DNA of 64,000 nucleotides. Source: an uncultured Methanosarcinales archaeon. GTDB lineage: Archaea; Nanobdellota; Nanobdellia; Woesearchaeales; GW2011-AR9. A model generated the notes under the pieces. The model saw nothing but the letters and a program-made list of their open reading frames with translations, ran no database searches and had not been told where the DNA came from. A program made the position numbers and the translations under genes. This document shows, one piece after another, positions 39,380 through 58,005 of this stretch. How positions within the stretch are numbered: position 1 is the first letter of the stretch; the number at the start of each line of letters is the position of its first letter. The stretch lies in assembly GCA_964343575.1 (NCBI GenBank), contig CAYFJV010000002.1:69585-133584 (forward strand). The letters run 5' to 3'.

Positions 39380-41809
39380 GTGATGTTAGCGTCAGCTCAA
39401 AAAAGAGGACATTGTAGGGATAGCAAGCGTGGGCAAGTTACCCTGTTCATAATTCTAGGAATGGTTATTCTTATCTCCGTTGGTTTCATGCTAGCGCTTA
39501 CTGCCATGATTCAGAAAGGACAATTGCAAGTTGCTGAAGAAGATGTAGTTTCCAATTTATTTCAAACCGAGAGTTTGCGTTTGTTTATAGATGATTGTTT
39601 GTATGATGCCCTTGAGGAGGGTTTAGTTCAAATTGGAGAGCAAGGGCGTTTGTGGAAAGAGCAGGATGGTGGCACTGTTCCTTTTGTTGCAGGAGAGACC
39701 GGAACCTTTCATTTTGGAAAACAGGTTTATTATGCAATCAGTTATGATAACAACAGTAATCATAGCGAGGCTTACCCTTGTTCCAATTCCACAGATCTTT
39801 CTCCTGATTATTGTCGCTACAGTTTTCCTGAGGAAGGAAAATTTGGTGAGAAGGAGCATTTGAGTGCAAGTGCAATTGAAGGAGATTTGCTCCGATACAT
39901 TACTCAGGAAGCAGCTCTTTGTATGGAAGAAGTGCTTCAAAGTAATTATTCTTTGTTCGTCCCGGTTGTTGCTGAAGAAATTGATCTTTCTTTAGATATT
40001 GCTACAAATGGCATTGCTGTAGAAGCAAGCTATCCTTTACATCTTGAGCAAGGGGGAGAAGAATACACCCAACTTACCGAGTTTGATTTTTTTTACTCTA
40101 GCTCTTTGAGCTCTTTTTTACTTCAAGCAGTAACACGCCCTATTAATGAAGAGCAAAGTGATCCAACTTATCTTTTTTCAGAAGCTGATTTGCAAAGTTC
40201 GGAGCCCTATCAACTTTTAGATCCCACTTTTACAAAAACAGAGGCGAGCAGTGGGGATACTATCATTCAATATAACTTGAACCCGGGAGTGATTCTTGAG
40301 AACCAAGATTATTTCTTTCAATTTGCTTTAGAAAATCGCCCTCCTGCACTTGACTACATTGAGCGTAATGCTTGTTTAAGTTATGATTATTTGGTTTTAG
40401 AGGGAGAGCAAGGAGATATGGGAAAATTACTTTTAGATGCATCAGCTAGTGACCCTGAGGAGGATAGCGTTACTTTTTCTTTGCTTGACGATCATTTGCC
40501 AGTGCCACTTAGTTCGGTAGATTCTGATTCTTGGAGTGCAGACTTACAAGGTGCGGCTCCAGGTTATTATAACTTCACTCTTTTAGCGGCAGATGAACAT
40601 GGTAGGACTGATTTGCAAAATGTTCGCGTCCTTCTTGATCGAGAAATCACCGCTGAATTTTCGGTCGCTTCCCCTTATTGTACTTTTGCAGGAGACCATA
40701 GTTGTTTACTCTCTACCGAAGATCCTTTTTTTGTAACACTTACTAACCCAGGAGAATCGTTAGCAGCAGACGTTGATGAAGTGCTTGAGCTTAGTTACGA
40801 TGGTTTTAATGGAGAGAGCTTTGTTTCAGGAGCTTTGTATCCTTCCTTACTTGGTGCAGAGAGTTGTATTGGTCTTCCAATGGAAACTGAGACTAGCCCA
40901 GCATCTTGTAACATTAGTGCTTACGACCCATTCATTGAAAGTTGGAAAGATTCTTTGTTGGGCCCGAGCAGTACGCACCCCTACTTAAGCCAAACGACGC
41001 CAGATGGCGAACTTAGTGTGGCCTTTTTTACAGGTTATTGCGGCGCCTGGGAGTATGAAAATAAGGAGTTCTTACATTTTGAAGTTGCAGAGTGTATCCC
41101 TCATGAAAATCTTGAGAATCCCTTCGCTTACCCTTACCACCACCAAACTTTTGATCCGATCAGCGGAGAATATCTTGGTCTTGATGAGGAAATTAGTCCT
41201 TTCTTGGCGGCCCACAGTTGTTGTAATATGAATGGAACTTACAAGGCAGCAGGCTCAAGTTGTTATGAAAGTGCTCCTGGTTGTTATGGAGGTATTGTTG
41301 GTTGGACTTCTAGCGCTCCCGGTCTTGTCTTGGAGCAGGAAAGCGATACTTGTAGTGGGCTTCGTGGGAATGTTTGTGGGACTGGAAGTTCTAAAATAAG
41401 CGAATTGTATCAAGGAAACCTTGTTTGTGGAAGCAGTTTTGATGTTTCTTGCTCTTTAGATCAAATCCCAGATGTCTGTGAAGGAAGAGATGCTTGGGGT
41501 TATGTTGATGAGAACTTTGATGGTATTAACGATGCTTGGTGTCACGGGCAAATGGGTTGTAGTGCTCTTTGCTCACTCGGCGATGGCGGGTCAGTAGTTT
41601 ATTCAGGAGGAGGAGTTGCTCCAAGTGGGCCAGAGGGCATTAACCAACAGGCAGTTTTGGGACAGGCAAGTGATGATGCTTTTGCGCCTTTCGATCCTTT
41701 TTTCTCTTTTAGTTGTGGATGTAGTTCTGCTACAGAAGGAAGTGTTTGTGATGCTAACTTTGATGGAGAATTCTTAGGGCAGTGTGTTTCTAGTGTTTGT
41801 GTTGAGTAG
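39380..41809 (+). CDS. Large (809 aa) acidic, Cys-rich extracellular protein with a class III (prepilin-like) signal peptide
   Basis: The N-terminus is ...SKRG|QVTLFIILGMVILISVGFMLALTAM, a basic tract then G|Q then a 22-aa hydrophobic stretch. The mature part is D/E-rich with many paired Cys residues. Confidence 0.6.
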   Translation: MMLASAQKRGHCRDSKRGQVTLFIILGMVILISVGFMLALTAMIQKGQLQVAEEDVVSNLFQTESLRLFIDDCLYDALEEGLVQIGEQGRLWKEQDGGTVPFVAGETGTFHFGKQVYYAISYDNNSNHSEAYPCSNSTDLSPDYCRYSFPEEGKFGEKEHLSASAIEGDLLRYITQEAALCMEEVLQSNYSLFVPVVAEEIDLSLDIATNGIAVEASYPLHLEQGGEEYTQLTEFDFFYSSSLSSFLLQAVTRPINEEQSDPTYLFSEADLQSSEPYQLLDPTFTKTEASSGDTIIQYNLNPGVILENQDYFFQFALENRPPALDYIERNACLSYDYLVLEGEQGDMGKLLLDASASDPEEDSVTFSLLDDHLPVPLSSVDSDSWSADLQGAAPGYYNFTLLAADEHGRTDLQNVRVLLDREITAEFSVASPYCTFAGDHSCLLSTEDPFFVTLTNPGESLAADVDEVLELSYDGFNGESFVSGALYPSLLGAESCIGLPMETETSPASCNISAYDPFIESWKDSLLGPSSTHPYLSQTTPDGELSVAFFTGYCGAWEYENKEFLHFEVAECIPHENLENPFAYPYHHQTFDPISGEYLGLDEEISPFLAAHSCCNMNGTYKAAGSSCYESAPGCYGGIVGWTSSAPGLVLEQESDTCSGLRGNVCGTGSSKISELYQGNLVCGSSFDVSCSLDQIPDVCEGRDAWGYVDENFDGINDAWCHGQMGCSALCSLGDGGSVVYSGGGVAPSGPEGINQQAVLGQASDDAFAPFDPFFSFSCGCSSATEGSVCDANFDGEFLGQCVSSVCVE

Positions 41810-42034: not shown

Positions 42035-42604
42035 ATGGACCCGGTAAGTTTTTTGCTTCTTCTCGTAGTTCTTTTAGGAGTATTCTTTACTCTTCTCTAT
42101 CTTCTTTTTAAGCAGAAGGAAGAACACTTTGAGTATAGTTTGCCTTTGGAAGATGGGGAAGACGATGAGAAAAAAAGATCTTTTTTTGATCCTTCATTTT
42201 TTGCTAGAATTCAAGAACACCTCTTTTTTTTGCGTAAGAAGCACAAGAGAAAAGTGAGCTCTTACAAGCGTCATGAAGAGTTTGCAACCTTCCCTGAAAC
42301 TAAGGCTGCTTTTGTTGCTGGAAAAGACACTTCACAAAAGACAGGGAAAGGGATTGGAAAGGGTAGACACATGCACCGTCTTGGTAAGCTAGTTGATAAA
42401 CATCAACGAAAAAAAGTAAAAGCGTCTGCAGGAGGTAAGAAGAAGGAAAAAAAGTTTTTTCTGAACAGAGTTTTGGCTAAACGTATTGATTTTTGGAAAG
42501 AGAATACTCCTTTGCATTCTATCGAACGCATTGATGCTCTTGAAAGAGTTCGTTCTGTAGCAAAAGGTGCTGTGAAAAAGAAAGAAATTAAGAAAAAGAA
42601 GTAA
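42035..42604 (+). CDS. Membrane protein with an N-terminal TM helix and a long basic cytoplasmic region
   Basis: MDPVSFLLLLVVLLGVFFTLLYLLF followed by a K/R-rich region. Confidence 0.4.
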   Translation: MDPVSFLLLLVVLLGVFFTLLYLLFKQKEEHFEYSLPLEDGEDDEKKRSFFDPSFFARIQEHLFFLRKKHKRKVSSYKRHEEFATFPETKAAFVAGKDTSQKTGKGIGKGRHMHRLGKLVDKHQRKKVKASAGGKKKEKKFFLNRVLAKRIDFWKENTPLHSIERIDALERVRSVAKGAVKKKEIKKKK

Positions 42605-42714
42605 GGGTGTGTTTCTCTTCTCATTCTTTTCATTCTATTTTTTAAAGGTCTTCGTCGGTTCCTTTAAAACGAAGGTTTATAAAGCAAAATGCTTTCTTCC
42701 CTGAGGTATTTTCC

Positions 42715-45700
42715 ATGGTGGAAACGAGTAAAAAGAGGACCCTTGTAGATGTAATTCTAGCTCGAGCTTTTTTCTTTGGCCTTCTGTTTATTCTTACTGT
42801 GATTTCGCTTAACGGCGCCTTTGCTGTTGGCTTAGAAGGGTGTTACACTTATGCGGGAGGAAGCCCAGACCTTTTTTGTCAAGATGATGTCTTAGAAGAA
42901 GATGCTTTGGCTGACTATGAGCTCTTAGTTGGAGACGGGCTTTTTGATGATTATTTTTTCCCTGGGCAGAGTTGTGATGTTTTTCCTGACCTTTGTGAAG
43001 AAGTGACTTGCTCTTTGGATTGTAGCACGCAGGCGATTGGTTCTTGTGAATTTGAAGGAGGACAAGCAGTTCCAGATGATGAATATGATTTGTGGTGTAG
43101 TTGGGGTTGTTGTCAAATCCCTTCAGGTTATTGTGGTCAAGTAGATCTGCGCTCTGTTTGTGTGGAAGAAGCTTCTTACCAAGGATATTCTATCGATGAA
43201 GTAACTTACATCAGTTCAGCTTACAGTCCGATCACCACAGATGAATGTGTAGATCTTTGTGTTGCAGGATTGGAGGATGCGAGCTTAAGTGGTTACATCT
43301 TTGATGCAGCGGACGGAGTAACTCCAATTGAAGGAGCAACAGTTGAACTTCGATCGGGAGTTACAGCTCAAAGTGATGTGGCAGGATTTTATCAATTTCA
43401 AACAGTGAGCCCTGGAACTTATGTGGTAAGTGTTAGTGCAACTGGCTATTCTGGAGCTTCGCAGACAATAACTTTGGAATCTGGGGAAGTTGAAGAACTT
43501 GATTTCACTTTGAGCGTTGCAGACCAAGTAGCAAGTCTTTCTGGAACTGTGGTGGATGAGTTTGGTGTTGCAGTAGCTGACGTTTCTTTATGTTGGACTG
43601 GCCCAGGGGTTGGTTGTACTACTTCTGCAGTAGATGGTTCTTATTTGGTTAGCGAAATCTTACTTGGAGATTATACTTTTACTCTGAGTAAGTTTGGTTA
43701 TGAGACAAGTAGCGATAGTCTAAGCATTCAATCAGACCTGGTCTATGATTTTGTTCTCTTCTCTCAACCGTTCCAAGGTATTAGTGGAAGCACCTGGATT
43801 GATCCAGAAGGAGATGGTTTGCTTCTTGGCGGAACAGATTACTTGCAGTATGGGGTAAGTATCTTCGTAGATGGGATCTATCGGGGAAGTTCACAATACC
43901 CTGATGGAGATTTTAATATTTATCTTGATGAAGGAGATTATACCATAACAGCGAGCTACCTTGATTTTGTCTCTCCTGAGTACAGTGTTACTGTTCTTGC
44001 TGGACAGTCAAGTTCTGTTGATCCTGTGTTAACACAGTACATTGGAGAGTGTAGTTATGGTCAACCGGACGAGTCAAAACCAGTTGCAGAATTACATGCG
44101 GTCGCGGTTGCTGGTTCTCTTGCTGTAGATTTGAGTTGGGATAAACCTTGTGCTGAGGTGAGTGGTTATAATCTTTATCGTGACGGTGAGCTACACATGC
44201 AACTTTCACCTTTCGCTTTAAGTTTTACCGATTCAATTGATTTGGAATGGGGAATGGGTTATATCTATGGAATCCAAGCGATTTATACTGATGGTCCGAT
44301 GATTGATGACCAACCTCAAACTCGCTTTTCAGAGATTACTGAGACAAGCATCACTCTTGGAAATGCCGCTTGTGAAGGAAAAGAACCCGGAGATCTTTTT
44401 TGTCTGGCTGACGATCTAAAGTCAACTTACACTTGCGATATTTTCAACACTCTTTTGATCAGTACAAGTTGTGCTGCTTTAGATACAAGTACGAGCGATT
44501 ATTATTGTGTAGAATCAAGCCCAGGATTTGCAACCTGTAAAGACGCAGGTATGTGTAACGCCTTTACTCTTGGCGCCGATCCTTTTGGTTTGTACCACAG
44601 CGAAGAAGTTTGTTATGGCCCTTACCTTGGCGCAGAGAGCGGTTATGAGAATTATTGTTACTATGATTACACTTCTGGAGTTGTTGATCAGTGTACGAGT
44701 TGCGTGGAGGTAGAAAGTTGTTTTGATTATGTTAGTGAGGGGGCTTGTGGTATCAACAACTGTTTGGGAGTTGGTTGTCAATGGATCAACGGAAGTTCTT
44801 CTTCTGGAGAAGGAGATATTAGTGCTTATGAAGAAGAGAGCGAACCTTTCTTAGATTATGGTTACCTTTTCCCTGTGAGCGAGGAGACGGGCCATGGTTA
44901 TTGCGCCCCGCTTGAGTATGAAGAGGATGATAATTGCGCCCTTTGTTCTCCTGGAAGCAGTCTTTTTGAAAACAACTTGTGTACTCCTGAAGTTTGTACT
45001 GAATTGGGCGCTTGTTACTCTGATAAGGATTTGCCTTTGAGTACTTGCCATTCCTGTGGCGAAGAAAGTAGTCCCGAGGTGAACTGTTACAGTTATGCTT
45101 CAGAGCTGGAATGTACTGCAGGAAGCCCAACTGTGAACGATAATGGACAAATTTTGCGTTCAGCAGATAGCTGTACTTGGGGTGCTTGCGCTTGGATTGC
45201 CGATGACTTTGATCCTGCCGGTGGTTATTGTATCAAAGATGGGGATGCCAACCGTATTGATGATTGTTCTGAGTTTGTCTCAGGAGATTATTCTTCTTGT
45301 ATTGCAGATACTGCTCCGCCAGTGACTTCTTTGCAAGCAGAGGGCTTTGCAATTGTATCTGAGACATTTTCACAATTAGAATTTGTTGCTGTTGATAACG
45401 AGAGGATGGGGAGTCTGTGGTTCTGTTTGGAAAGCGCTGATGCAAGTGATTGTACTGATTTTGAAGCCGCAGATTATCCTTTCACCTTGCAGGGAGAAGA
45501 AGCTCTTTTGGAACTTAACATGAGTGAGTCAAGTTTTTTACAGTCAGAATTGGTTGATGGCGAGACTTACAAACTTCGCTTCTACTCCGTTGATGAGTTC
45601 TATAACCAAGAATCTGTACAAGAAGCTTTTGTTTTCGTTGATAACAAACTTCCCGATTTTACTGTTGTAACTGAGCCAAGCATAGATGGAGATGTTGTAG

Positions 45701-48700
45701 ATCTCTTAGTCTATCTTACTGATTTGAGCGAGCCAGTGAGTTGTAGTTTTACATTGGAAGAAATTTTGCCTCCTGCTGCAGAGCAAGTTATTGGGTTTGA
45801 ACGTGACGAGGACAAAGAATACACTTTTGTAGGCCTTGGGGCTACTCTTGCCGAGTTGAGTGTTTCTTGTACTGATGATCATGGAAACTCTTTTGTGCAT
45901 GAAGAGACCCTTAGTTTTGATCTAGAACAAGATATTAGTATTGTTTATCCTCCTTTGGGTGGCTCTGTTTCTGAGACCACAATTATTTTTGAGATTGAGA
46001 CCGCAGTGTCTGCAAGTTGTGACTTGTATTACGATAATGATGGCGACCTTATCTTTGATTATCTAAGTAACTTTAACAGTATCGATATTGATAATAAGGT
46101 TCACGAAACTAACCCGATTCCTGGCTTCTTCGAAGGAGAATATGTTGGTAACTTACAGGTGATTTGTCGAGAATCTTTGGATCAGAGCCAAGTGTTAGAA
46201 GATTATTTTGATTTTGTCGTAGATTTTACCGGGCCAGAGACACAGATTATTTTGACTGAAGGGACCAGAGAAGAAACCCCAATTGCTTATGGTTGGGAAG
46301 AATACTTTATCTCTGAAGTGCAGGTGGACTTTAGTTGTGAGGCAGATGGATTTGATTGTGACCAAAGTTTTTATTGTCTTGGAGAAGGTTGTGAATTTGC
46401 AAGTGCCCCGGGTTATGTAGAGTACACTGGAAGCGGCAGTTTGTTTGTAAATGAAACAACAGAAATTTGTTATTACTCTACAGATCTTGGCGGTTCTACT
46501 GTTTATCCTACTTGTGGAACCATCATCGTAGAGGGCTTTGGCATCAATTTAGTTCAACCGGACCCTTATTTCTATCAAGGAGAAGTTTATGGAGTAAGTG
46601 CAGCCGATAGCTTTGATTGGGAAGTTATGAGCAAGATTGATACTCAAGGCTGCGTTTTTGATTTCACTTCAGAATTTGATTATCATGGGGTCCCTCTAAT
46701 CCGAACTTTCTCGGAAAGTCTTAGTGGAGAAAATTACTACCTTTATTCTCCTTTCCCTGGAGATGGGGCGAGCGCTTACGACGCAATTGGCGGGCTTAAA
46801 GTCCTTTATGTGAAATGTGAAGATTACCAAGGAGAGATTGGTCCTGCACAGAAAATGAACCTTGAGTTCGATCCTTCTGCTCCAAGTATTAGTGATGCTT
46901 ACGCTGAGCCAGATTTTATCACCGAAGGAGTTGTTACTCATCTTTATGTGACCACCGATGATCCTACGCTTTGTAGGTACAGTGATAACTCAGATGGGGA
47001 CGGAAGTACTGAATTTGCAACTATGCCATTCAGTTTCCCTGGTTACGATGAAGGAGAATTGCATCTTGCTCATCAAGACGATTTTATTTTCAGTTTTGTT
47101 GGTGCAACAAGAGATTACAGCTTAAATGTACAATGTATGAACGGGGCAGGAGACCTTTCTGAAGTTGAAACCATTGATTTTAGTGTAGATTATACTGTTG
47201 CAGGAAACATTATGAGTGTTGCTCCGAGTGGTTTTATCTCTGGAGAAAACGTTACTTTACTTGTTGAGACTAACAAAAACGGCGTTTGTTCTTACGAAGA
47301 AAATGGCAGTTCAGTTGATTTTGAAGTAACTGGTGGCACAAGTCACAGCCATTTGATTGGGTCTCTTGAAGAAGGAGATTATCAATACCTTGTCACTTGC
47401 CATATCGCAGAAAATGTACGCACTGCCGAGATTATCTTTACTGTAGATCAAACTGCGCCAACTGTGACCATGGTAGAGGATGGTTCTTACTCTTGTAGTT
47501 TGGAGCAAGTGAGCATTTATGTTTACACAGACGAAGAAAACATTAGCACTTATTACTATCAACTCTATCAAGGAGAATCAGATCTTGGAGAATCTTCTTT
47601 GAGTACTTACTTTACTACTACTAATGATACAGCCCCAGATGATGAAGAAGCAGTGCTTATTGGAGAAGGAACCTTGTTAGGGGACAATGGTACTGTGATT
47701 ACTGGACTTAGTTTAGAAGAAAATGAGAGTTACTTTGTGAAGGTTGCAGCAAGCGATGTTGCTGGAAACACTGGCGGATACACTTCAAGTGATGGTTTTA
47801 TTGCAAGTGGTTCTGACCTTACTGTTTGTGCTGCTGATGGTGATGCGCCAAACGTTCGCGTACAAACCAACAGTAGTAGTTGTACTGAAGTCACCGCCGA
47901 AATTATTTGTGAGGATGAACTTGCTTGTAGTAGCATTAGTTATGGACAGAGCACAAGTTCCGAGACCTGCTCTGCCGATTCAAGTTATTATGGACAAAAA
48001 CTTTCCTTCTCAAGCTCTGGGTGGGTTTGTTACTCTGCAAGCGATCCAAGCGATAACCAAGAGAATGGGAGTGCTCAAATAACCTTTAGTGATAATGATG
48101 GAGATGGCATCTCTGATAGTTGTGATCTTTGTAGTGGTACTCTGTCTGGACAAGATGTTGATGCAGAAGGTTGTGGTCTAGGGCAGGTTCCAGATGATGA
48201 GCGAACAAATGATGAAGATAACGATGGTTTGCCAGATCATTGGGAAAGAGTCTATCACAGAGAAGGTGTTTGTCCTTTGTTTGCCGAAGCAATAGACTCG
48301 GACAGTAATGGTATTACTGATACTGATGAAGATTATGATGGGGACGGTTACACTAACTATGAAGAGTACATTGCTGGTTTAGACCCTTGTGTTGCTGATG
48401 CTCCGAGCACCTTTATTGATGACAATGATCTTGACAGCGAACTTCTGGGCCTTCCTGGAAGTGGAGAAGGAAAGGAAGGGGCCGATGTTGTAGCTATTAT
48501 CTTCTTTGTCATTGGCGCACTGTTCATGCTTGGTGGTGCGGGTTATCTTTATTATTATTATAATTACACTCCAGAAGGGAAGGTTCTTTTGAAGCAAGGG
48601 GGGAAAGGGAGTCTGAGAGGAGTCGGTTCTGGCGGCGCTCTTGGAAGTAGCGTTGGTGGCGGCCTATATCGTCAAGGAATTGGTTCTCGATCAGCAGGTG

Positions 48701-49140
48701 CAGGTCTTGGGGGTTCCGGGGCTAGGGCTGGGTTCGGGGCCACGGGAGTTGCAGGCGGAGGACTTTTAGATAGTATGAGACGGAGAGTTTCCTCTCGTAA
48801 GCGATCCCGAGAACGAAAGTTACGATCTTTGCAAAGGCAGAACGTCTTTGGAAGTTTTAGTAAAGAGAGTGGAGAATTCCCCCACTTTAAGGATATTTTG
48901 AGCTCTCGAAAGAGTCATCATGCAAAGGTAGGAGATCTTGTTGAGCGTTACAACGATCACCATGATGTTGTACAACAAGGTTTGAAGAAAGAAGAAAAGG
49001 CTCTTTTTAGGCGCTTAGATAAAATCTCTAGTGAAGCAGAGAAAAAGAAGCAAAGTGTTCGAGCAACAGTTGGTAAAGATGAAGCTAAAGATATTTTTGA
49101 AAAGTTGAAGAAATTGAGCGAGAAGCGTAAGTCAAGCTGA
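42715..49140 (+). CDS. Giant (2141 aa) surface adhesin-like protein: Sec signal peptide, CarboxypepD_reg-like domains, Cys-rich modules, TSP3-type Ca-binding repeats, C-terminal TM anchor and Gly-rich basic tail
   Basis: The signal peptide carries an AFA|VG signal-peptidase site. Two CarboxypepD_reg-like beta-sandwich repeats are present (SGYIFDAADGVTPIEGATVELRSG...GFYQF...PGTYVVSVSATGY, and a second copy). Near the C-terminus are D-x-D-x-D-G motifs (DEDNDGLPDHWE, DTDEDYDGDGYTNYEEYIAGLDPC) typical of thrombospondin type 3-like calcium-binding repeats. The protein ends with a TM helix (VVAIIFFVIGALFMLGGAGYLYYYY) and a Gly/Arg-rich tail. Confidence 0.7.
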   Translation: MVETSKKRTLVDVILARAFFFGLLFILTVISLNGAFAVGLEGCYTYAGGSPDLFCQDDVLEEDALADYELLVGDGLFDDYFFPGQSCDVFPDLCEEVTCSLDCSTQAIGSCEFEGGQAVPDDEYDLWCSWGCCQIPSGYCGQVDLRSVCVEEASYQGYSIDEVTYISSAYSPITTDECVDLCVAGLEDASLSGYIFDAADGVTPIEGATVELRSGVTAQSDVAGFYQFQTVSPGTYVVSVSATGYSGASQTITLESGEVEELDFTLSVADQVASLSGTVVDEFGVAVADVSLCWTGPGVGCTTSAVDGSYLVSEILLGDYTFTLSKFGYETSSDSLSIQSDLVYDFVLFSQPFQGISGSTWIDPEGDGLLLGGTDYLQYGVSIFVDGIYRGSSQYPDGDFNIYLDEGDYTITASYLDFVSPEYSVTVLAGQSSSVDPVLTQYIGECSYGQPDESKPVAELHAVAVAGSLAVDLSWDKPCAEVSGYNLYRDGELHMQLSPFALSFTDSIDLEWGMGYIYGIQAIYTDGPMIDDQPQTRFSEITETSITLGNAACEGKEPGDLFCLADDLKSTYTCDIFNTLLISTSCAALDTSTSDYYCVESSPGFATCKDAGMCNAFTLGADPFGLYHSEEVCYGPYLGAESGYENYCYYDYTSGVVDQCTSCVEVESCFDYVSEGACGINNCLGVGCQWINGSSSSGEGDISAYEEESEPFLDYGYLFPVSEETGHGYCAPLEYEEDDNCALCSPGSSLFENNLCTPEVCTELGACYSDKDLPLSTCHSCGEESSPEVNCYSYASELECTAGSPTVNDNGQILRSADSCTWGACAWIADDFDPAGGYCIKDGDANRIDDCSEFVSGDYSSCIADTAPPVTSLQAEGFAIVSETFSQLEFVAVDNERMGSLWFCLESADASDCTDFEAADYPFTLQGEEALLELNMSESSFLQSELVDGETYKLRFYSVDEFYNQESVQEAFVFVDNKLPDFTVVTEPSIDGDVVDLLVYLTDLSEPVSCSFTLEEILPPAAEQVIGFERDEDKEYTFVGLGATLAELSVSCTDDHGNSFVHEETLSFDLEQDISIVYPPLGGSVSETTIIFEIETAVSASCDLYYDNDGDLIFDYLSNFNSIDIDNKVHETNPIPGFFEGEYVGNLQVICRESLDQSQVLEDYFDFVVDFTGPETQIILTEGTREETPIAYGWEEYFISEVQVDFSCEADGFDCDQSFYCLGEGCEFASAPGYVEYTGSGSLFVNETTEICYYSTDLGGSTVYPTCGTIIVEGFGINLVQPDPYFYQGEVYGVSAADSFDWEVMSKIDTQGCVFDFTSEFDYHGVPLIRTFSESLSGENYYLYSPFPGDGASAYDAIGGLKVLYVKCEDYQGEIGPAQKMNLEFDPSAPSISDAYAEPDFITEGVVTHLYVTTDDPTLCRYSDNSDGDGSTEFATMPFSFPGYDEGELHLAHQDDFIFSFVGATRDYSLNVQCMNGAGDLSEVETIDFSVDYTVAGNIMSVAPSGFISGENVTLLVETNKNGVCSYEENGSSVDFEVTGGTSHSHLIGSLEEGDYQYLVTCHIAENVRTAEIIFTVDQTAPTVTMVEDGSYSCSLEQVSIYVYTDEENISTYYYQLYQGESDLGESSLSTYFTTTNDTAPDDEEAVLIGEGTLLGDNGTVITGLSLEENESYFVKVAASDVAGNTGGYTSSDGFIASGSDLTVCAADGDAPNVRVQTNSSSCTEVTAEIICEDELACSSISYGQSTSSETCSADSSYYGQKLSFSSSGWVCYSASDPSDNQENGSAQITFSDNDGDGISDSCDLCSGTLSGQDVDAEGCGLGQVPDDERTNDEDNDGLPDHWERVYHREGVCPLFAEAIDSDSNGITDTDEDYDGDGYTNYEEYIAGLDPCVADAPSTFIDDNDLDSELLGLPGSGEGKEGADVVAIIFFVIGALFMLGGAGYLYYYYNYTPEGKVLLKQGGKGSLRGVGSGGALGSSVGGGLYRQGIGSRSAGAGLGGSGARAGFGATGVAGGGLLDSMRRRVSSRKRSRERKLRSLQRQNVFGSFSKESGEFPHFKDILSSRKSHHAKVGDLVERYNDHHDVVQQGLKKEEKALFRRLDKISSEAEKKKQSVRATVGKDEAKDIFEKLKKLSEKRKSS

Positions 49141-49183
49141 TCTATAGCTTTGTGGCTCAGATGGGAAGTTGGTTGATAGGAAG

Positions 49184-49717
49184 ATGTTTTGGAACAAAAA
49201 AGGGATGGGCATTCAGCAAGTTTTTGTCTTTATTGTAGCGGCAATAGTTTTTGCTATCATTACTATTTTTGGTTACAGTGCTATTACTGATTTTATTGAT
49301 AAGGGAGAGCAGGTTGAGTTTTATCAGTTTAAGACAGAGATCGAATCAAGTATCAAGAAGATTTATCCTGAGTTTGGAGCAGTGCGCCAAGAAGAATATC
49401 GAGTACCAGTAGAGTATGAACAGATTTGTTTTGTTGATTTGGACGCTCCTTTTGATCCGAGCTCTGAACTTTGCGAGAAAGACCCCATTGCTTGTGATGT
49501 TTGGGAAACTGCGCAAGACCCTTTAGCAGAAATTACTGGTTATGCTGCTGCTGACGAGAATGTGTTTTTGAAACCTCCTGCGCCAATTGCCTTAAAGGTG
49601 TTCACTTTAGATATTGATGGTGGATTCCTTTGTGAAGATATTAATGGGGGGCGCTTCTCACTTCGTTTGGAAGGAAGGGGCTCTTCTGTTGAACTGAGTT
49701 CGGTTGTGTATCAGTAG
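49184..49717 (+). CDS. Type IV pilin-like protein (class III signal peptide)
   Basis: MFWNKKG|MGIQQVFVFIVAAIVFAIITIFGY. An SD-like TAGGAAG precedes the ATG at 49184; the track start is 49169. Confidence 0.5.
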   Translation: MFWNKKGMGIQQVFVFIVAAIVFAIITIFGYSAITDFIDKGEQVEFYQFKTEIESSIKKIYPEFGAVRQEEYRVPVEYEQICFVDLDAPFDPSSELCEKDPIACDVWETAQDPLAEITGYAAADENVFLKPPAPIALKVFTLDIDGGFLCEDINGGRFSLRLEGRGSSVELSSVVYQ

Positions 49718-49782
49718 GGCATGGTTTGGTGAAGGGGTGTGAGCGAGTTTTTTGGTAGCTAAGATACTTGGAATATTGGAAA

Positions 49783-50934
49783 ATGAAATTTTTTGAGAGT
49801 GGCGGAATTTTTGGAAAGAAAGGGCAGTTTACACTTACTTTCAATTGGATTTACGTGCTCATAGTTGGAGCAGTTATCTTGCTTTTTTTTGTTGGTTTGG
49901 CAGTAAAGCAAACTGAAGTTTCTGAGCAACAACTTACTTTTGATGTAACCCAAATTTTAGATTCTATTTTTACGGGAGCCACAGTTTCTGAGAAGACGAA
50001 GAATTTTATAGATACTTCGGCGCTGCTTGATTTTAGTTTGACTTTTGAGTGTGAGTTAGATGCTGGTGGAGGTTTTCGTGATATTTTCTCTGGCTACGGT
50101 TTGGAGGGAACAAGCTCTAGCATCGAAACTCCCATAGAAGCAATTTTTGCTCCAGAAGAGATTCAGTCTAATGAAGTTATTACTTGGAGTTTACCTTATT
50201 ATTTGCCTTTCAAAGTAATGGATGTACTTTTGCTCAGCTCTCGTAACATTCAGTATTATGTGCTTGGTGGAGAAGGAACAGACTTTCGTATTGAGATGGA
50301 GAACATAACTGAAGGCTTTAACATAGCTTTTATCGATTCGCTCGATGAAGTTGAATCTGGAGATAATTTTCATGTGCGTGTAGTTGAATTTTCTTCTGGC
50401 GGAGTTGGTGATTCTCTTGTTTCGGGAGGAGCAGTGCCTGGAAGTTTGCTGATGCTTGCAGATAGTCAAGTCTCTGGTGTTTCTTTAACTCCTTCAAATG
50501 GGGCCTTTTATTTTTCTAAACAAGGTGGCGTATGGCAGAAAGATCATATTGAAGAAGTAGCAATTGTTTCTTTAGATGGTGAGCGTGATGCAGCAAAATA
50601 TGCTGCTTTGTTCTCTGGGTCTGCTGAAACTTACCAATGTAACATGATGAAGGTTTTCAAGCGTTTGGAAATCGTAAGCCAAGTCTATTTGAGCAAGTAT
50701 GAAGAATTGCTTGAGTATTATGATGTTACGGGAACAAGTTTGGTTGATCCTTCTTTGAAATCTTTGTGTTCAAACATCTTGGATGGAGATATTTCTTTAC
50801 AACAACTTTCTTCGGCAGCGACTGTGTGTACAATAAGTGGGTACACAGAATGTGTTGAATTAGAAAACTTTGCTTTTGATTTGGCTGCAATTAACGAGCG
50901 TTTGGACGAACGCGGTTGTGTTACTTTGTATTAG
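49783..50934 (+). CDS. Type IV pilin-like protein (class III signal peptide), 384 aa
   Basis: MKFFESGGIFGKKG|QFTLTFNWIYVLIVGAVILLFFVGLAV. Confidence 0.55.
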   Translation: MKFFESGGIFGKKGQFTLTFNWIYVLIVGAVILLFFVGLAVKQTEVSEQQLTFDVTQILDSIFTGATVSEKTKNFIDTSALLDFSLTFECELDAGGGFRDIFSGYGLEGTSSSIETPIEAIFAPEEIQSNEVITWSLPYYLPFKVMDVLLLSSRNIQYYVLGGEGTDFRIEMENITEGFNIAFIDSLDEVESGDNFHVRVVEFSSGGVGDSLVSGGAVPGSLLMLADSQVSGVSLTPSNGAFYFSKQGGVWQKDHIEEVAIVSLDGERDAAKYAALFSGSAETYQCNMMKVFKRLEIVSQVYLSKYEELLEYYDVTGTSLVDPSLKSLCSNILDGDISLQQLSSAATVCTISGYTECVELENFAFDLAAINERLDERGCVTLY

Positions 50935-50943
50935 CTTTGGTTG

Positions 50944-52539
50944 TTAATCCAATCTGTCAAGACGAACGTACTCTAGTTCCCCGCTGCCTGTGACTTCTAG
51001 GCTTGCTTGCAAGTTTTCGCTTGCTCCTGCAGGAATGCAAGCGCCATCCTCTCCTTGCACACTTACTGCATGACTTCCATTCATGTAAAGAGAAGCCGTA
51101 CCATCTGGAGAGATGCGAATCTCCCCATTAGCAAAAGAATCTTGTGATGCCGTCCCACTATAGCTTTCAGTATCTGGGTAGGAACCGTCAGGGTTTAAAC
51201 AAAGCAATGCAAACCTTCCTCCTTGTCTGTGGACGAAGGCAACTCCTGTCTTTCTCCCGAGCCAGTCCAAATCAGTAAAATCTCTCCCATAAACCCTCAC
51301 TGCAAAGTCTTCTGGATCAGAACTTTCTCTTTTCCATCTGAACTTTACTGAATAATCACTCTGAGGATCATAGGGTAATTCATTAGTTGTGAGACACTCG
51401 TCTCCTTCCAGTGTTGTTTCTAGTGTTTCGCTTGCAGGGTGGACTTGGTAGTTTCCTCCTGCGTGGCTATCGTCCCACTGGTCTACCGCAGTTCCAACAT
51501 CCAAACGGGGCTCAACAAAGCCGTCGCAGAAGACATTTGCATAGCTGTCTTCTTCGCATTCTGGATCAGCTGAATGTGTTGTGTAGTCGGTATCCCAAAG
51601 ACCTGTGTCCTGTTCAGTGAGAGAAAGATCTGTGTCTTGTGTGATTGGGTCGCTAACTATTGTCACGACTGTGCTCACTCCTGTTCCGCCACAAGAAATT
51701 TCATCCCCATCTATAATATCATTACAGTTGTTATCTAAACCATCATGACAAAGTTTTCCTGTTTCTTCTTCAAGACCTTCGAGTCCAGTTGCAAGATACA
51801 AACTTGCAGTTGCAGGGTGGCTGCTTCCATCAACCAAAGCATGATAGTTAAAATGTGTTACTTTGTCCTCGTCTGCCCGAAGACCAACCCCTTTTCTACT
51901 AGCTATCTCAAACAAACTATCTACTGTTTGATCAATCCCTGAGACGACCCCAATGATTGGAAACTTCTTAGTCATGAAAGTGTAAATTGTACTGGATAAG
52001 CCAGGTATTGCTTCATCTTTTTCTTTACAACCAAGATACCCGCTTCCTCCAACACCTTGTGTGGCATCCATTCTTAGGCTATCTGTGGTTCTTCTTGCCT
52101 CCCAGTAGGGATCTTGACCCACTTTGCCCATTCCTTCTTGATAAACAGTAACCCTCAAATCTTCAGTAATTGGGTCAAGCGTTGCGGTGTAAGGACTGAA
52201 ATGCTCGACAAACACTGCATCAGGTAGATAACCGCTTTCCGGCCCAGGGTCAATGAATAGTAATTCTGCTTTATCTCCTTTGGTGTCATGAAAACCTACA
52301 AGAGCATTTGCCATTGGCTCTCTGGTATCTTGAGCAAGAACAGTGATATCTGCTGGATCTCTTGGCTCGCCCGACTTTTTGGTGCCCTTCTCATATTGGG
52401 CCATGCTCACAAAACCATTGTCATTGGTGTGAGCAAACTTAAACATGGGCTTTGCTCCAGGTTGACATGCCCCGGCTAACGCTACTATTGGAAGAATTCT
52501 TGTTACATTTCTTACGATGGTCTCTAAGCCGCCCAACAT
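50944..52539 (-). CDS. Secreted protein, convergent with the cluster; contains a Cys/Asp-rich metal-binding-like motif and a possible C-terminal LamG/concanavalin-like domain
   Basis: The Sec-type signal peptide RILPIVALAGAC has a lipobox-like ending. The motif CHDGLDNNCNDIIDGDE resembles the Cu/Ca-binding C-x-D-G-x-D-N-D-C repeats. The C-terminal ~200 aa are beta-rich. Confidence 0.45.
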   Translation of the reverse strand: MLGGLETIVRNVTRILPIVALAGACQPGAKPMFKFAHTNDNGFVSMAQYEKGTKKSGEPRDPADITVLAQDTREPMANALVGFHDTKGDKAELLFIDPGPESGYLPDAVFVEHFSPYTATLDPITEDLRVTVYQEGMGKVGQDPYWEARRTTDSLRMDATQGVGGSGYLGCKEKDEAIPGLSSTIYTFMTKKFPIIGVVSGIDQTVDSLFEIASRKGVGLRADEDKVTHFNYHALVDGSSHPATASLYLATGLEGLEEETGKLCHDGLDNNCNDIIDGDEISCGGTGVSTVVTIVSDPITQDTDLSLTEQDTGLWDTDYTTHSADPECEEDSYANVFCDGFVEPRLDVGTAVDQWDDSHAGGNYQVHPASETLETTLEGDECLTTNELPYDPQSDYSVKFRWKRESSDPEDFAVRVYGRDFTDLDWLGRKTGVAFVHRQGGRFALLCLNPDGSYPDTESYSGTASQDSFANGEIRISPDGTASLYMNGSHAVSVQGEDGACIPAGASENLQASLEVTGSGELEYVRLDRLD

Positions 52540-52749
52540 TTTGGTTTCACCTTAGTTATACACCCACAAGGACCACTTTTTCTTAACTTATTACTGCAAA
52601 GTGACGGAATTATATAAGAATTTCGTTATATTTTTCGAAAAAACAACAAATTGCTATGCTTTTTTCTCTTGTCTAAGAGGTCTTTTCTGGCAGTTTTTGA
52701 CGGGTTTTGGCCGGAATTTGTTTGAGAAAAGTTTAAGTGGGCTAAAAAA

Positions 52750-53858: not shown

Positions 53859-54075
53859 TTTTTTTGTTTCTTGTTTTATTTTTCTGTTTCATTGTGCTTG
53901 GCTTCGTTTAGTTTATTTTGTTCTTTTCTTGTTCATTTAGTTCTCTGTTAACGCAATCTTTATATATGCAAAATGGTTTTTGCTTTATTAATTTACAGTC
54001 GTAAAAACTCATTACAACTTGCTTGTAGCAATCTAGTTGCTTGCAAATGTTGTTGTGGGATCACAAAGAGGTGTA

Positions 54076-54458: not shown

Positions 54459-54470
54459 GAGGTTAGATAG

Positions 54471-54855: not shown

Positions 54856-54891
54856 AGCCGGCTTTGGTTTGTTAGTTGAGGTGTTGCCAAG

Positions 54892-55026: not shown

Positions 55027-55027
55027 G

Positions 55028-55813: not shown

Positions 55814-55838
55814 TATTTTTTGAGTAGAGAAAAGGAAA

Positions 55839-58002: not shown

Positions 58003-58005
58003 AAC

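What the first reader, a model, noticed from the sequence alone, without database searches (positions are those of the whole stretch)
42715..49140. 2141-aa Sec-secreted, C-terminally anchored giant adhesin-like protein with bacterial-type TSP3 Ca-binding repeats
The protein has an AFA|VG signal-peptidase site. Two CarboxypepD_reg-like beta-sandwich repeats sit at about nt 43285-43770. Numerous Cys-rich modules follow, each with even Cys counts. Near the C-terminus (about nt 48110-48400) are DEDNDGLPDHWE and DTDEDYDGDGYTNYEEYIAGLDPC motifs. These are the D-x-D-x-D-G...G-T/L-D-P thrombospondin type 3 calcium-binding repeats common in bacterial cell-surface proteins. The protein ends with a TM helix and a Gly/Arg-rich cytoplasmic tail. 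It is embedded in the pilin-like locus. This fits a calcium-stabilised surface fibre or adhesin, and it looks partly bacterial in domain composition.
Basis: partly seen in the sequence, partly recalled or inferred. Interest (0 to 1): 0.6.

Follow-up and report, generated by a model that had tools for sequence, protein, structure and literature searches.

The report
Giant membrane-anchored archaeal surface stalk protein
This gene encodes a real 2141-residue cell-surface protein of an uncultured marine Woesearchaeota archaeon: a disulfide-rich stalk with a calcium-binding base, one membrane anchor and a conserved cytoplasmic tail. It always heads a block of pilin-like genes, but its function (probably cell-to-cell contact) has not been tested.

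Summary
The ORF (42715-49140, +) is intact, non-repetitive and not a misassembly. Colinear relatives occur in at least 12 independent assemblies. An exhaustive profile search found 834 cluster representatives; every named one is Woesearchaeota/Nanoarchaeota and carries only a generic annotation.

- An AxA-type signal peptide, conserved in 12/12 orthologs.
- CarboxypepD_reg domains, but three of them, not two.
- An FN3-like domain.
- 78 ectodomain cysteines, 75 invariant in 12 orthologs.
- Four DxDxDG loops just before the single C-terminal TM helix.
- A basic, Cys-free tail.

TSP3_bac fails Pfam's cut-off on the whole protein (11.3 bits) but passes on the fragment (26.7-28.7 bits). A profile of that region retrieves bacterial OmpA/TSP3 proteins.

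New findings:
- The module order is fixed across the family. The TSP3 base is the best-conserved module. The N-terminal Cys-rich tip is the most divergent apart from its cysteines.
- The giant gene heads the same pilin-like gene array in 10 other genomes.
- A short paralogue (tip + TM + tail) lies immediately upstream in four of those genomes. The window keeps only its TM + tail half.

Best reading: a Ca2+- and disulfide-stiffened type I stalk that displays a recognition tip and works with a type-IV-filament-like surface apparatus. S-layer or filament-accessory roles are not excluded. Structure models were of low confidence.

The parts
42676..42707 (+). Putative archaeal promoter and ribosome-binding region of the giant gene: TATA-like TTTATAAA at 42676-42683 and GAGGT at 42703-42707
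   Evidence: Read directly from the sequence. The function is inferred.
42715..42825 (+). Signal peptide, aa 1-37: KKR n-region, hydrophobic core, AFA|VG cleavage site
   Evidence: Hydropathy. Ala at -1 before (E/Q/T)GCY in 12/12 orthologs. An N-terminal hydrophobic segment belongs to the shared topology seen in 71 of 76 full-length family representatives. Cleavage itself was not tested.
42826..43278 (+). N-terminal Cys-rich module ('tip'), aa 38-188, 14 Cys. No Pfam match.
   Evidence: The Cys positions are 88-99% conserved over 84 relatives, but non-Cys positions are only 23% identical, the lowest of the structured modules. The same module occurs in short paralogues in L001, L005, L008 and L012.
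43279..44040 (+). Three CarboxypepD_reg-like beta-sandwich domains: aa 189-270, 271-352, 353-442
   Evidence: PF13620 E=1.9e-27, or 1.4e-30 on the fragment. hhalign copy 1 vs copy 2 98.8%, copy 1 vs copy 3 90.9%. AF2 pLDDT 75-89 for copies 1-2. PDB profile hits NOMO2 and carboxypeptidase D.
44041..44358 (+). FN3-like domain, aa 443-548, with the C446/C479 pair
   Evidence: Weak Pfam fn3 match, E=0.045. The family profile hits the NagJ FN3 domain (2w1n), E=3e-4. AF2 pLDDT ~66-86. C446 and C479 are conserved in 84/84 relatives.
44359..45318 (+). Two Cys-rich regions, aa 549-868, 30 Cys. No family match.
   Evidence: Nearly all Cys are 94-100% conserved in 84 relatives. AF2 pLDDT below 50, so the fold is unknown.
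45319..48084 (+). About nine beta-rich modules, aa 869-1790, mostly one Cys pair each; two modules have six Cys. These form the presumed stalk.
   Evidence: All-beta in the AF2 model, but pLDDT is mostly below 50. Foldseek gives only generic tandem FnIII/Ig chains, TM below 0.12. Sub-threshold Big_3_3 and Big_13 matches. The modules are not detectably related to one another. Their order is fixed across the family. The module boundaries are my own estimate.
48085..48405 (+). TSP3-type calcium-loop region, aa 1791-1897: four DxDxDG loops starting at aa 1793, 1833, 1861, 1873; 5 Cys
   Evidence: TSP3_bac scores 26.7 and 28.7 bits on fragments against a cut-off of 25, but 11.3 bits on the whole protein. 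Four loops are observed against ~0.03 expected. The loop Asp residues are conserved in 81-84 of 84 relatives, except D1863, which is Asp in 63 and Asn in 18. This is the best-conserved module, at 50% identity. Its profile retrieves OmpA/TSP_3 and TSP3_bac proteins.
48406..48555 (+). Acidic, Ser-rich variable linker (aa 1898-1918) and single transmembrane helix (aa 1919-1947)
   Evidence: Hydropathy. AF2 helix at aa ~1925-1951. The linker is 13-16% identical between relatives and the TM helix 39%.
48556..49140 (+). Cytoplasmic tail: Gly-rich low-complexity stretch (aa 1948-2029), then a conserved basic helical domain (aa 2030-2141), then the stop codon
   Evidence: pI 10.3 and no Cys. Invariant R2041, F2045, F2048, F2098, L2101, A2124, F2128, K2130, L2131, S2135 in 12 orthologs. 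Helices at pLDDT 59-70. Specific to this family in a profile search. A related domain occurs in ORF 42035-42604.
42035..42604 (+). 189-aa ORF with an N-terminal TM helix and a basic tail. It is homologous to the C-terminal half of the short paralogues and, more weakly, to the giant protein's tail.
   Evidence: hmmsearch with the tail profile E=1.7e-6; hhalign 77.8%, E=1.9e-5. BLASTP against aa 297-425 of the L005 436-aa protein E=3e-7. No remnant of the tip module lies upstream of it in the window.
39380..41809 (+). 809-aa protein with a class-III-like N-terminus (KRG|QVTLFIILG...) and 29 Cys. It is a conserved upstream neighbour.
   Evidence: Homologues lie upstream of the giant gene in L001, L005, L011 and L012. 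No Pfam match.
49169..60908 (+). Array of 13 small or mid-sized + strand ORFs. Twelve have a [KR][GA] + hydrophobic N-terminus (class-III-signal / pilin-like). The array is interrupted by a window-specific minus-strand gene at 50944-52539.
   Evidence: Motif scan. The same gene order follows the giant gene in 10 other genomes. Gaps between + strand neighbours are mostly short (-65 to +50 nt), with larger gaps of 219 and 569 nt and 1815 nt across the inserted gene. No Pfam families match.

Best explanation
The gene encodes a type I membrane protein of a marine Woesearchaeota (DPANN) archaeon.

Proposed mechanism:
1. A Sec-type signal peptide is removed.
2. The ~1880-residue, very acidic ectodomain folds outside the cell into a chain of beta-sandwich and Cys-rich modules held by about 39 disulfides.
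3. A cluster of four TSP3-type DxDxDG loops next to the membrane binds Ca2+ and stiffens the base.
4. One TM helix anchors the protein. A conserved basic helical domain stays in the cytoplasm, where it could dock a partner.
5. The membrane-distal Cys-rich module acts as the recognition tip, displayed far from the membrane. If all ~13 beta modules are extended, the reach would be tens of nanometres.

The gene is probably co-expressed with the pilin-like genes that follow it. The most likely role is contact with another cell or surface, in concert with a type-IV-filament-like apparatus.

Shown here: the sequence features, their conservation, and the gene linkage. Inferred: topology, disulfides, Ca2+ binding, extension, co-transcription and the contact function.
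For: Topology:
- Only two hydrophobic segments exist.
- Ectodomain pI is 4.05 with 78 Cys; tail pI is 10.3 with no Cys.
- The same layout occurs in 71 of 76 full-length family representatives, and 69 of those 71 tails are Cys-free.

Disulfides:
- 75/78 Cys are invariant in 12 orthologs, and most are at least 95% conserved over 84 relatives at 27-51% identity.
- Cys are gained or lost in pairs: C293/C301 and C1208/C1215 have Jaccard 1.0; C1723/C1803 has 0.96.

Ca2+ base:
- Four DxDxDG loops against 0.03 expected.
- TSP3_bac passes its cut-off on the fragment.
- The region's profile finds OmpA/TSP_3 proteins.
- It is the best-conserved module, with the loop Asp residues conserved in 81-84 of 84 relatives apart from D1863 (Asp in 63, Asn in 18).

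Stalk and tip:
- The module order is fixed in at least 45 clusters.
- The tip keeps its cysteines but is the most divergent module elsewhere (23% identity at non-Cys positions).
- A short paralogue joins the same tip directly to a TM helix and basic tail in L001, L005, L008 and L012. The central ~1700 residues therefore behave as a spacer.

Linkage:
- The same array of class-III-signal proteins follows the gene in 10 other genomes.
- The gap to the next gene is 28 nt.

Precedent:
- Archaeal type-IV-filament loci often encode large Ig-rich adhesin-like proteins (bioRxiv 10.64898/2026.04.22.720090).
Against: - No experiment or expression data bear on function.
- Structure models are of low confidence (mean pLDDT 46 and 41). 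The 'beta-sandwich chain' is solid only for the CarboxypepD_reg and FN3-like domains.
- Among the 12 close orthologs, conservation is nearly uniform along the ectodomain (36-62%), and the architecture is rigidly fixed. Known adhesins usually vary in repeat number and have fast-evolving tips.
- No filament ATPase, platform protein or prepilin peptidase was seen among the window ORFs scanned, or in the precomputed Pfam annotation of the flanks of L001-L004.
- The paired Cys loss could partly reflect shared ancestry or errors in a fast alignment.
- TSP3_bac is below its cut-off on the whole protein.
Confidence: 0.5

Rival explanations
1. It is the S-layer or main envelope protein of these archaea, or its membrane-anchoring subunit. 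In this reading it forms a Ca2+-dependent lattice, anchored by the C-terminal TM helix, rather than acting as an adhesin.
For: - Sec signal, beta-sandwich array, variable Ser/acid-rich stalk and C-terminal TM helix match the layout of archaeal S-layer glycoproteins and of proposed DPANN S-layer anchors. [quoted passage not shown]
- One colinear orthologue was found in each genome locus fetched, with a rigidly fixed architecture and uniform conservation.
- The ectodomain is very acidic and the divalent-cation sites are strongly conserved.
- No S-layer protein has been determined for any DPANN archaeon, so the role is open.
Against: - N-glycosylation sequons are not enriched: 11 observed against 9.4 +/- 2.8 expected. 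The proposed DPANN and archaeal S-layer proteins carry many.
- A ~196-residue tail with a conserved cytoplasmic domain, and a tip-plus-anchor short paralogue, are not known S-layer features (my own knowledge).
- The only S-layer model hit, Kustd1514, covers just the CarboxypepD_reg part at 69.9 bits against a cut-off of 1400.
- The tight linkage to pilin-like genes is unexplained.
- Abundance and lattice formation cannot be tested here.
Confidence: 0.22
2. It is a dedicated structural part of the filament apparatus encoded downstream. It could be a membrane-spanning anchor or guide that links a pilus-like filament (or lets it cross the envelope) to a cytoplasmic partner through the conserved tail. 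It would not itself be a binding protein.
For: - The giant gene is linked to the pilin-like array in 10 other genomes and always sits at the head of the block.
- The tail domain is conserved and family-specific. It is also found alone on a TM helix in ORF 42035-42604.
- The immediately downstream 182-aa pilin-like protein is more conserved (47-65% identity) than the giant protein itself.
- The literature proposes that S-layer-like Ig-rich proteins in filament loci help filaments traverse the envelope.
Against: - No assembly ATPase or platform gene lies in the conserved block.
- No interaction evidence exists.
- The pilin-like status of the neighbours rests on N-terminal motifs only, with no Pfam pilin match.
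- A 1900-residue ectodomain is very large for an accessory part.
Confidence: 0.2
3. It is an artefact: a misassembled chain of repeats, a pseudogene, or a recently transferred bacterial RTX/Bap-type giant adhesin.
For: - Giant ORFs in metagenome assemblies are sometimes chimeric.
- The domain names (CarboxypepD_reg, 'bacterial' TSP3) and the best non-family hits are bacterial.
Against: - The ORF has no internal DNA repeats. The only tandem repeat is 2 copies of 21 nt.
- The modules are not related to each other.
- Full-length colinear relatives occur in at least 12 independent assemblies and in 76 cluster representatives.
- GC content matches the surrounding chromosome.
- There are no RTX GGxGxD motifs, no LPxTG and no C-terminal secretion signal.
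- All named relatives are Woesearchaeota/Nanoarchaeota.
- The window carries archaeal core genes: PolD, Cdc6, MCM, TBP, TFE.
Confidence: 0.02

Closest known systems
Large Ig-fold-rich 'adhesin-like' or S-layer-like proteins encoded in archaeal type-IV-filament (TFF) loci, e.g. arCOG05616, arCOG07037, arCOG05057 (bioRxiv 10.64898/2026.04.22.720090)
   Same: A large, beta-sandwich-rich surface protein encoded next to several class-III-signal (pilin-like) genes in an archaeon. Function is untested in both cases. Adhesion or helping a filament pass the envelope has been proposed.
   Different: - Sequence membership in those arCOGs was not tested, because no arCOG library was available.
- This family is confined, among named sequences, to Woesearchaeota/Nanoarchaeota.
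- It has ~78 conserved cysteines, a TSP3 base and a conserved cytoplasmic tail.
- Its conserved block contains no ATPase or platform gene.
[quoted passage not shown] Nanobdella aerobiophila MJ1_0299/0309/0707 (bioRxiv 10.1101/2023.10.27.564410)
   Same: The same overall topology in a DPANN archaeon. They are likewise discussed as S-layer anchors or host-contact proteins.
   Different: - Those proteins have 4-7 Ig-like folds and carry 13-49 N-glycosylation sites.
- This one is 2141 aa, is not enriched in sequons, is rich in disulfides, and has a long conserved tail.
- No sequence relationship was tested.
Bacterial giant Ca2+-binding adhesins (SiiE, LapA/LapF, MpIBP)
   Same: A very long, acidic chain of beta-sandwich domains thought to be stiffened by Ca2+ and to project a binding region from the cell. 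Foldseek lists SiiE (2yn3) and a large adhesin extender (6xi3) among generic hits.
   Different: - Those adhesins are exported by type I secretion, carry RTX repeats and have many near-identical tandem BIg repeats.
- Here there is a Sec signal, no RTX motif and no repeated modules.
- Ca2+ loops occur only at the base, and the protein has an integral TM anchor.
TSP3-repeat-containing proteins: Pfam TSP3_bac PF18884 and TSP_3 PF02412, as in bacterial OmpA-family proteins and thrombospondin/COMP
   Same: DxDxDG(L/V)xD loops, including a D-x-D-G-D-G-x-x-D-x-C-D-x-C...VD..GC unit and a DxDGDGY.NYEEY..G.DPC unit. A profile of the region retrieves OmpA + TSP_3 proteins at E down to ~4e-16.
   Different: - Only about four loops, lying between a beta-rich stalk and a TM helix in an archaeal protein.
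- Below the Pfam cut-off on the full-length protein.
- Ca2+ binding has not been measured.
Haloarchaeal S-layer glycoprotein type (Sec signal, Ig-like domains, Ser/Thr-rich stalk, C-terminal anchor)
   Same: The same order of features from N-terminus to membrane, a very acidic ectodomain, and dependence of such layers on divalent cations (my own knowledge).
   Different: - No PGF-CTERM or archaeosortase signal at the C-terminus.
- A 196-residue cytoplasmic tail.
- No sequon enrichment.
- Many cysteines.

Membership tests
Pfam CarboxypepD_reg (PF13620) | Score at or above the gathering cut-off (32.3 bits) | tested here: met
   95.9 bits, E=1.9e-27, 3 stretches on the whole protein. 105.9 bits on the aa 181-462 fragment. 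The third copy is supported by hhalign at 90.9%.
Pfam TSP3_bac (PF18884), bacterial TSP3 repeat | Score at or above the gathering cut-off (25 bits) | tested here: inconclusive
   The whole protein scores 11.3 bits, E=0.32, which fails. The excised fragments score 26.7 bits (aa 1696-1915) and 28.7 bits (aa 1780-1920), which pass. 6 of 11 orthologous fragments match at E<=0.01, and 2 match TSP_3 PF02412.
TSP3-type calcium-binding repeats | Clustered, conserved DxDxDGxxD loops | tested here: met
   Four loops lie within 90 residues, against 0.03 expected; 0 of 2000 shuffles reach four. The loop Asp residues are conserved in 81-84 of 84 relatives, except D1863 (Asp in 63, Asn in 18). The reciprocal profile search returns TSP_3 and TSP3_bac proteins.
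TSP3-type calcium-binding repeats | Actual Ca2+ binding | not testable with these tools
   This needs ITC, 45Ca overlay or a structure of the aa ~1780-1900 fragment.
Sec-dependent type I membrane protein | Cleavable N-terminal signal peptide, one C-terminal TM helix, positive-inside tail | tested here: met
   Tested by sequence criteria only. Two hydrophobic segments; an AxA-type site conserved in 12/12 orthologs; tail pI 10.3 against ectodomain pI 4.05; every Cys on the predicted outside. No SignalP-type predictor was available and cleavage was not shown.
Archaeal type IV pilins / class III signal peptide proteins | Conserved [KR][GA] cleavage motif directly before the N-terminal hydrophobic helix | tested here: not met
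   The window protein has an incidental 'RA' before its hydrophobic core. The motif is not conserved in the orthologs, which instead share an AxA site after the core. The neighbouring genes do carry the motif.
RTX / type I-secreted giant adhesins (SiiE, LapA, MpIBP) | GGxGxD nonapeptide repeats, a C-terminal T1SS signal, and tandem near-identical Ig repeats | tested here: not met
   No GGxGxD motif. No tandem or dispersed DNA repeats. Modules are unrelated by hhalign. The C-terminus is a TM helix plus a basic tail.
Archaeal S-layer glycoproteins | Enrichment of N-glycosylation sequons | tested here: not met
   11 sequons in the ectodomain against 9.4 +/- 2.8 in composition-preserving shuffles.
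Archaeal S-layer glycoproteins | Very high abundance and 2-D lattice formation | not testable with these tools
   This needs metaproteomics or metatranscriptomics and cryo-electron tomography. The NCBIfam Kustd1514 S-layer model matched only through the CarboxypepD_reg region (69.9 bits against a cut-off of 1400).
PGF-CTERM / archaeosortase substrates | PGF motif + TM helix + short basic stretch at the extreme C-terminus | tested here: not met
   PGF occurs only at aa 603 and 1136. About 196 residues follow the TM helix.
TFF-locus adhesin-like proteins (arCOG05616, arCOG07037, arCOG05057) | Genomic association with pilin genes | tested here: met
   The giant gene heads the same array of class-III-signal ORFs in 10 other genomes.
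TFF-locus adhesin-like proteins (arCOG05616, arCOG07037, arCOG05057) | Sequence membership in those arCOGs; presence of ATPase and platform genes in the locus | not tested
   No arCOG profiles were available. No T2SSE/T2SSF-type gene was seen among the window ORFs scanned or in the annotated flanks of L001-L004. Whole genomes could not be inspected.

The most novel reading that the evidence does not exclude
The giant protein, its short tip-plus-anchor paralogue, the 809-aa class-III-signal protein and the ~13 pilin-like proteins could together form an undescribed surface organelle specific to Woesearchaeota. In this reading, a transmembrane stalk with a dedicated cytoplasmic domain couples an extracellular filament and recognition tip to the cell interior. 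That would make it the host-attachment or host-access device of these uncultured DPANN episymbionts.
Probability: 0.15. Interest if true: 0.75.

Novelty: new variant of a known kind. Interest (0 to 1): 0.45.

Why it matters
Woesearchaeota are among the most widespread uncultured archaea. They are thought to depend on other cells, yet no molecule that mediates their contact with a partner, and no DPANN S-layer protein, has been identified.

This gene belongs to a large, lineage-restricted family with a rigidly conserved layout, fixed at the head of a pilin-like gene block. That makes it a concrete, easily recognised candidate for the main surface structure of these cells. It could serve as a marker and antigen for imaging, as bait for finding hosts, and as a target for metaproteomics.

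The tip-plus-anchor short paralogue and the conserved cytoplasmic domain suggest which parts to test first. Nothing here shows a new biochemical principle; the interest lies in the biology of the lineage.

Tried and rejected
- **AlphaFold2.** Two halves were modelled (aa 38-1000 and aa 960-2141) with 5-sequence alignments. Mean pLDDT was 46 and 41. Only CarboxypepD_reg copies 1-2, the FN3-like domain and, partly, the tail helices are usable.
- **Foldseek against the PDB.** The second model returned only generic multi-FnIII/Ig chains with TM below 0.12. I do not treat these as evidence of a specific fold.
- **PDB sequence and profile searches.** They recognised only the CarboxypepD_reg and FN3-like parts.
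- **NCBIfam.** Only a partial S-layer model hit through CarboxypepD_reg, plus a weak PA1041 anchor hit over the first TSP3 loop.
- **First word-indexed homologue search.** It found only 4 full-length relatives and badly underestimated the family; the exhaustive profile search found 834.
- **Tail comparison.** BLASTP of the tail against ORF 42035-42604 found nothing. The relationship appeared only with profiles.
- **Tail profile against the 5.8-billion-sequence set.** It returned only four short fragments.
- **hhalign among the nine presumed beta modules.** It showed no convincing relationship, so the idea of a repeat array was dropped.
- **Literature.** Six full-text searches found no description of this family. 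Two Woesearchaeota papers that I checked do not mention it.
- **mafft --auto** on 84 full-length proteins timed out. A faster, less accurate mode was used, so the Cys co-loss results carry that caveat.
- **Rejected readings.** The protein is not itself a pilin (no conserved class III motif). It is not a PGF-CTERM, LPxTG or RTX protein.

Full report

The ORF at 42715..49140 (+) starts with ATG, has no internal stop and encodes 2141 residues. A TATA-like TTTATAAA lies 39 nt upstream of the ATG. GAGGT lies 12 nt upstream.

GC content matches the rest of the window. The window is an archaeal chromosome segment carrying PolD DP1/DP2, Cdc6, MCM, TBP, TFE and RNase P p30.

The ORF contains no meaningful tandem or dispersed DNA repeats. 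Its modules are not related to one another apart from the CarboxypepD_reg copies. Together with the colinear relatives described in section 3, this rules out a repeat misassembly.

**2. Anatomy**

*Topology.* Hydropathy finds only two hydrophobic segments, at aa ~8-43 and aa ~1919-1947.
- The N-terminus has a KKR n-region, a hydrophobic core and an AFA|VG site.
- All 12 orthologs examined have Ala at -1, two to three residues before a conserved (E/Q/T)GCY. No signal-peptide predictor was available, so cleavage is inferred.
- The ectodomain (aa 38-1917) has pI 4.05 and holds all 78 cysteines.
- The tail (aa 1946-2141) has pI 10.3 and no cysteine.

*Domains recognised.*
- Pfam gives CarboxypepD_reg at E=1.9e-27 with three stretches.
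- An FN3-like domain follows at aa 443-548. Its support is a weak Pfam match, a family-profile hit to the NagJ FN3 domain at E=3e-4, and a confident region in the model.
- The N-terminal Cys-rich module (aa 38-188, 14 Cys) matches no Pfam or NCBIfam model.
- The two Cys-rich regions (aa 549-868, 30 Cys) also match no Pfam or NCBIfam model.
- Roughly nine beta-rich modules at aa 869-1790 match no Pfam model above its cut-off.

*Structure prediction.* The AlphaFold2 models were poor, with mean pLDDT 46 and 41 from 5-sequence alignments. They support 'all-beta ectodomain, TM helix, disordered Gly-rich stretch, helical C-terminal domain' only loosely. Foldseek returned only generic multi-FnIII/Ig chains. 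The boundaries of the nine modules are my estimate.

*The TSP3 claim.*
- Four D-x-[DN]-x-[DN]-G-x-x-[DN] loops start at aa 1793, 1833, 1861 and 1873, within 90 residues of one another. Their last residue lies about 40 residues before the TM helix.
- Shuffles of the ectodomain or of the local region give about 0.03 such loops and never four.
- Pfam TSP3_bac is below its cut-off on the whole protein (11.3 bits against 25). It passes on excised fragments (26.7 and 28.7 bits).
- Six of 11 orthologous fragments match TSP3_bac, and two match TSP_3.
- A profile of the region retrieves proteins carrying OmpA + TSP_3 or TSP3_bac, at E down to about 4e-16. Those with names are bacterial.
- The motif type is therefore confirmed. 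Calcium binding itself remains an inference.

- a variable Gly-rich stretch at aa 1948-2029;
- a conserved basic domain at aa 2030-2141, predicted helical (pLDDT 59-70), with ten invariant residues in 12 orthologs.

A profile of the tail found only four short fragments in 5.8 billion sequences, so the domain is specific to this family.

**3. The family**

*Size.*
- The word-indexed search found four full-length relatives at 44-49% identity.
- A scan of species-representative genomes found nine loci.
- An exhaustive profile search with aa 545-1700 found 834 cluster representatives at E<=1e-3 and 217 at E<=1e-30.

*Shared layout.* Among the best 150 hits, 76 are 1900-2400 aa long.
- 71 of the 76 share the same layout: an N-terminal hydrophobic segment, one TM helix near the C-terminus and at least two DxDxDG loops just before it.
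- The most common Cys count is exactly 78, found in 27 of 76.
- 69 of the 71 tails are Cys-free.
- Searching these proteins with profiles of my module slices shows the same order in at least 45 clusters. That order is tip, three CarboxypepD_reg copies, FN3, two Cys-rich regions, nine beta modules, TSP3, TM helix, tail.
- Longer variants of 3000-6300 aa also exist.

*Taxonomy.* Named members are 'hypothetical protein' or 'carboxypeptidase regulatory-like domain-containing protein' from Candidatus Woesearchaeota or Nanoarchaeota. One is a marine single-cell genome, AG-343-C14. Two MAGs are labelled Methanosarcinales, which I suspect is a binning or labelling error.

*Conservation pattern over 84 relatives (27-51% identity to the window protein).*
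- Most cysteines are at least 95% conserved.
- Cysteines appear and disappear in pairs. C293/C301 are present together in 10 sequences and absent together in 74. C1208/C1215 are always lost together. C1723/C1803 are lost together in 23 of 24 cases. This is the pattern expected of disulfide partners. Shared ancestry and the fast alignment mode are caveats.
- The TSP3 region is the best-conserved module, at 50% identity. Its loop Asp residues are conserved in 81-84 of 84 sequences, except D1863, which is Asp in 63 and Asn in 18.
- The N-terminal tip is the most divergent structured module at non-Cys positions, at 23% identity, although its cysteines are kept.
- Among the 12 close orthologs, conservation is fairly even along the ectodomain, at 36-62%.

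**4. Neighbourhood**

*Downstream.*
- The giant gene is followed after 28 nt by a 182-aa ORF, and then by further + strand ORFs up to 60908. Most of the gaps between them are short.
- Of the 14 other + strand ORFs checked between 39380 and 60908, 13 have a [KR][GA] motif followed by a hydrophobic helix. That is a class-III-signal-like, pilin-like N-terminus. None of them matches a Pfam pilin family.
- The same gene order follows the giant gene in 10 other genomes.
- The first downstream protein is more conserved (47-65% identity) than the giant protein itself.

*Upstream.* The 809-aa class-III-signal protein with 29 cysteines (39380-41809) is present upstream of the giant gene in four other genomes.

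*What is missing.* No filament ATPase, platform protein or prepilin peptidase was seen in the window ORFs scanned, or in the annotated flanks of L001-L004. The minus-strand gene at 50944-52539 is specific to this window.

**5. A short paralogue**

In L001, L005, L008 and L012, the ORF directly upstream of the giant gene is 307-436 aa long. It consists of a signal peptide, the same Cys-rich tip module, a TM helix and a basic tail.
- The tip profile matches the L005 and L008 ORFs at E=1.7e-16 and 1.5e-12.
- BLASTP of the giant protein's tip against the L005 protein gives E=2e-9, with the cysteines aligned.

In the window, the corresponding ORF (42035-42604, 189 aa) has only the TM helix and tail.
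- It matches aa 297-425 of the L005 protein at E=3e-7.
- It matches the giant protein's tail profile at E=1.7e-6, with hhalign 77.8%.
- No remnant of the tip module lies upstream of it.

So the two ends of the giant protein exist as a separate, directly joined unit. This suggests that the central ~1700 residues act as a spacer.

**6. What it most likely does**

I favour a type I membrane-anchored stalk (confidence 0.5):
- it is stiffened by about 39 disulfides and by Ca2+ at its base;
- it displays a Cys-rich recognition tip tens of nanometres from the cell;
- it is expressed with, and works alongside, a type-IV-filament-like surface apparatus;
- its probable role is contact with another cell or surface, in line with the presumed partner-dependent lifestyle of DPANN archaea.

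The sequence features, their conservation and the gene linkage are shown. The topology, disulfides, Ca2+ binding, extended shape, co-transcription and contact role are inferred.

The main rivals are:
- an S-layer or envelope-anchor role (0.22);
- a dedicated filament-accessory or anchor role through the cytoplasmic domain (0.20).

The rigid architecture and even conservation favour these two more than a classical adhesin. The lack of sequon enrichment, the long conserved tail and the tip-plus-anchor paralogue argue against a typical S-layer protein. The artefact and bacterial-RTX-adhesin readings are contradicted (0.02).

**7. Comparison with what is known**

The closest described things are:
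- large Ig-rich adhesin-like or S-layer-like proteins in archaeal type-IV-filament loci;

The protein works like bacterial giant Ca2+-dependent adhesins in outline, but it fails their defining features: no RTX motif, no type I secretion signal, no tandem repeats. I found no paper describing this family. The library searched is incomplete, so this is not proof of absence.

**8. Verdict**

This is a new, lineage-restricted variant of a known kind of archaeal surface protein. It is of moderate interest, mainly as a concrete candidate for the unknown contact or envelope structure of Woesearchaeota.

Noticed in passing
window 37790-38653 (-): A full-length prolipoprotein diacylglyceryl transferase (Lgt, PF01790, E=1.7e-63), normally a bacterial enzyme, sits in this archaeal chromosome next to RNase P p30. 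The same pairing is conserved in L003 and L008.
   Followed up: partly
window 50944-52539 (-): A 531-aa minus-strand gene is inserted inside the pilin-like array and absent from all 10 related loci. Its N-terminus (ILPIVALAGAC) resembles a lipobox, which is notable given the Lgt gene nearby. It also carries a Cys-rich CHDGLDNNCNDIIDGDEISC motif and has no Pfam match.
   Followed up: partly
window 42035-42604 (+): A 189-aa ORF made of a TM helix plus a basic tail. It is homologous to the C-terminal half of the short tip-plus-anchor paralogues in other genomes and, more weakly, to the giant protein's own tail. It may be a truncated paralogue or a stand-alone tail module.
   Followed up: yes
L001 8765-9934; L005 9818-11128; L008 9896-11086; L012 2166-3089: Short paralogues (307-436 aa) lie immediately upstream of the giant gene. 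Each has a signal peptide, the same N-terminal Cys-rich module, a TM helix and a basic tail.
   Followed up: yes
window 39380-41809 (+): An 809-aa protein with a class-III-signal-like N-terminus and a Cys-rich C-terminal half (29 Cys). It is conserved upstream of the giant gene in L001, L005, L011 and L012 and has no Pfam match.
   Followed up: partly
window 56798-57223 (+): A 141-aa pilin-like ORF with a weak thrombospondin type 3 match (PF02412, E=0.0088, aa 70-85) and an acidic C-terminus.
   Followed up: no
window 49169-49717 (+): The first gene after the giant gene (182 aa, pilin-like) is the most conserved protein of the block, at 47-65% identity across 10 genomes. That is higher than the giant protein itself.
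   Followed up: partly
L006 and L013 (contigs CAYTOG010000006.1, CAZGQD010000011.1): Two MAGs that carry the family and the same gene order are labelled 'uncultured Methanosarcinales archaeon'. All other named members are Woesearchaeota/Nanoarchaeota, so this is probably a binning or labelling error.
   Followed up: no
proteins P0071, P0133, P0157, P0170 (search): Much longer relatives of 3268-6316 aa exist. They share parts of the module set. P0071 duplicates the distal beta-module-to-TSP3 segment.
   Followed up: no
window ~48760 (aa ~2016 of the giant protein): The ENA copy of the protein (P0001) has Cys where the window has Phe, in the Gly-rich tail. An NCBI copy in the same 90% cluster (P0172) lies on a 485,513-bp contig.
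   Followed up: no
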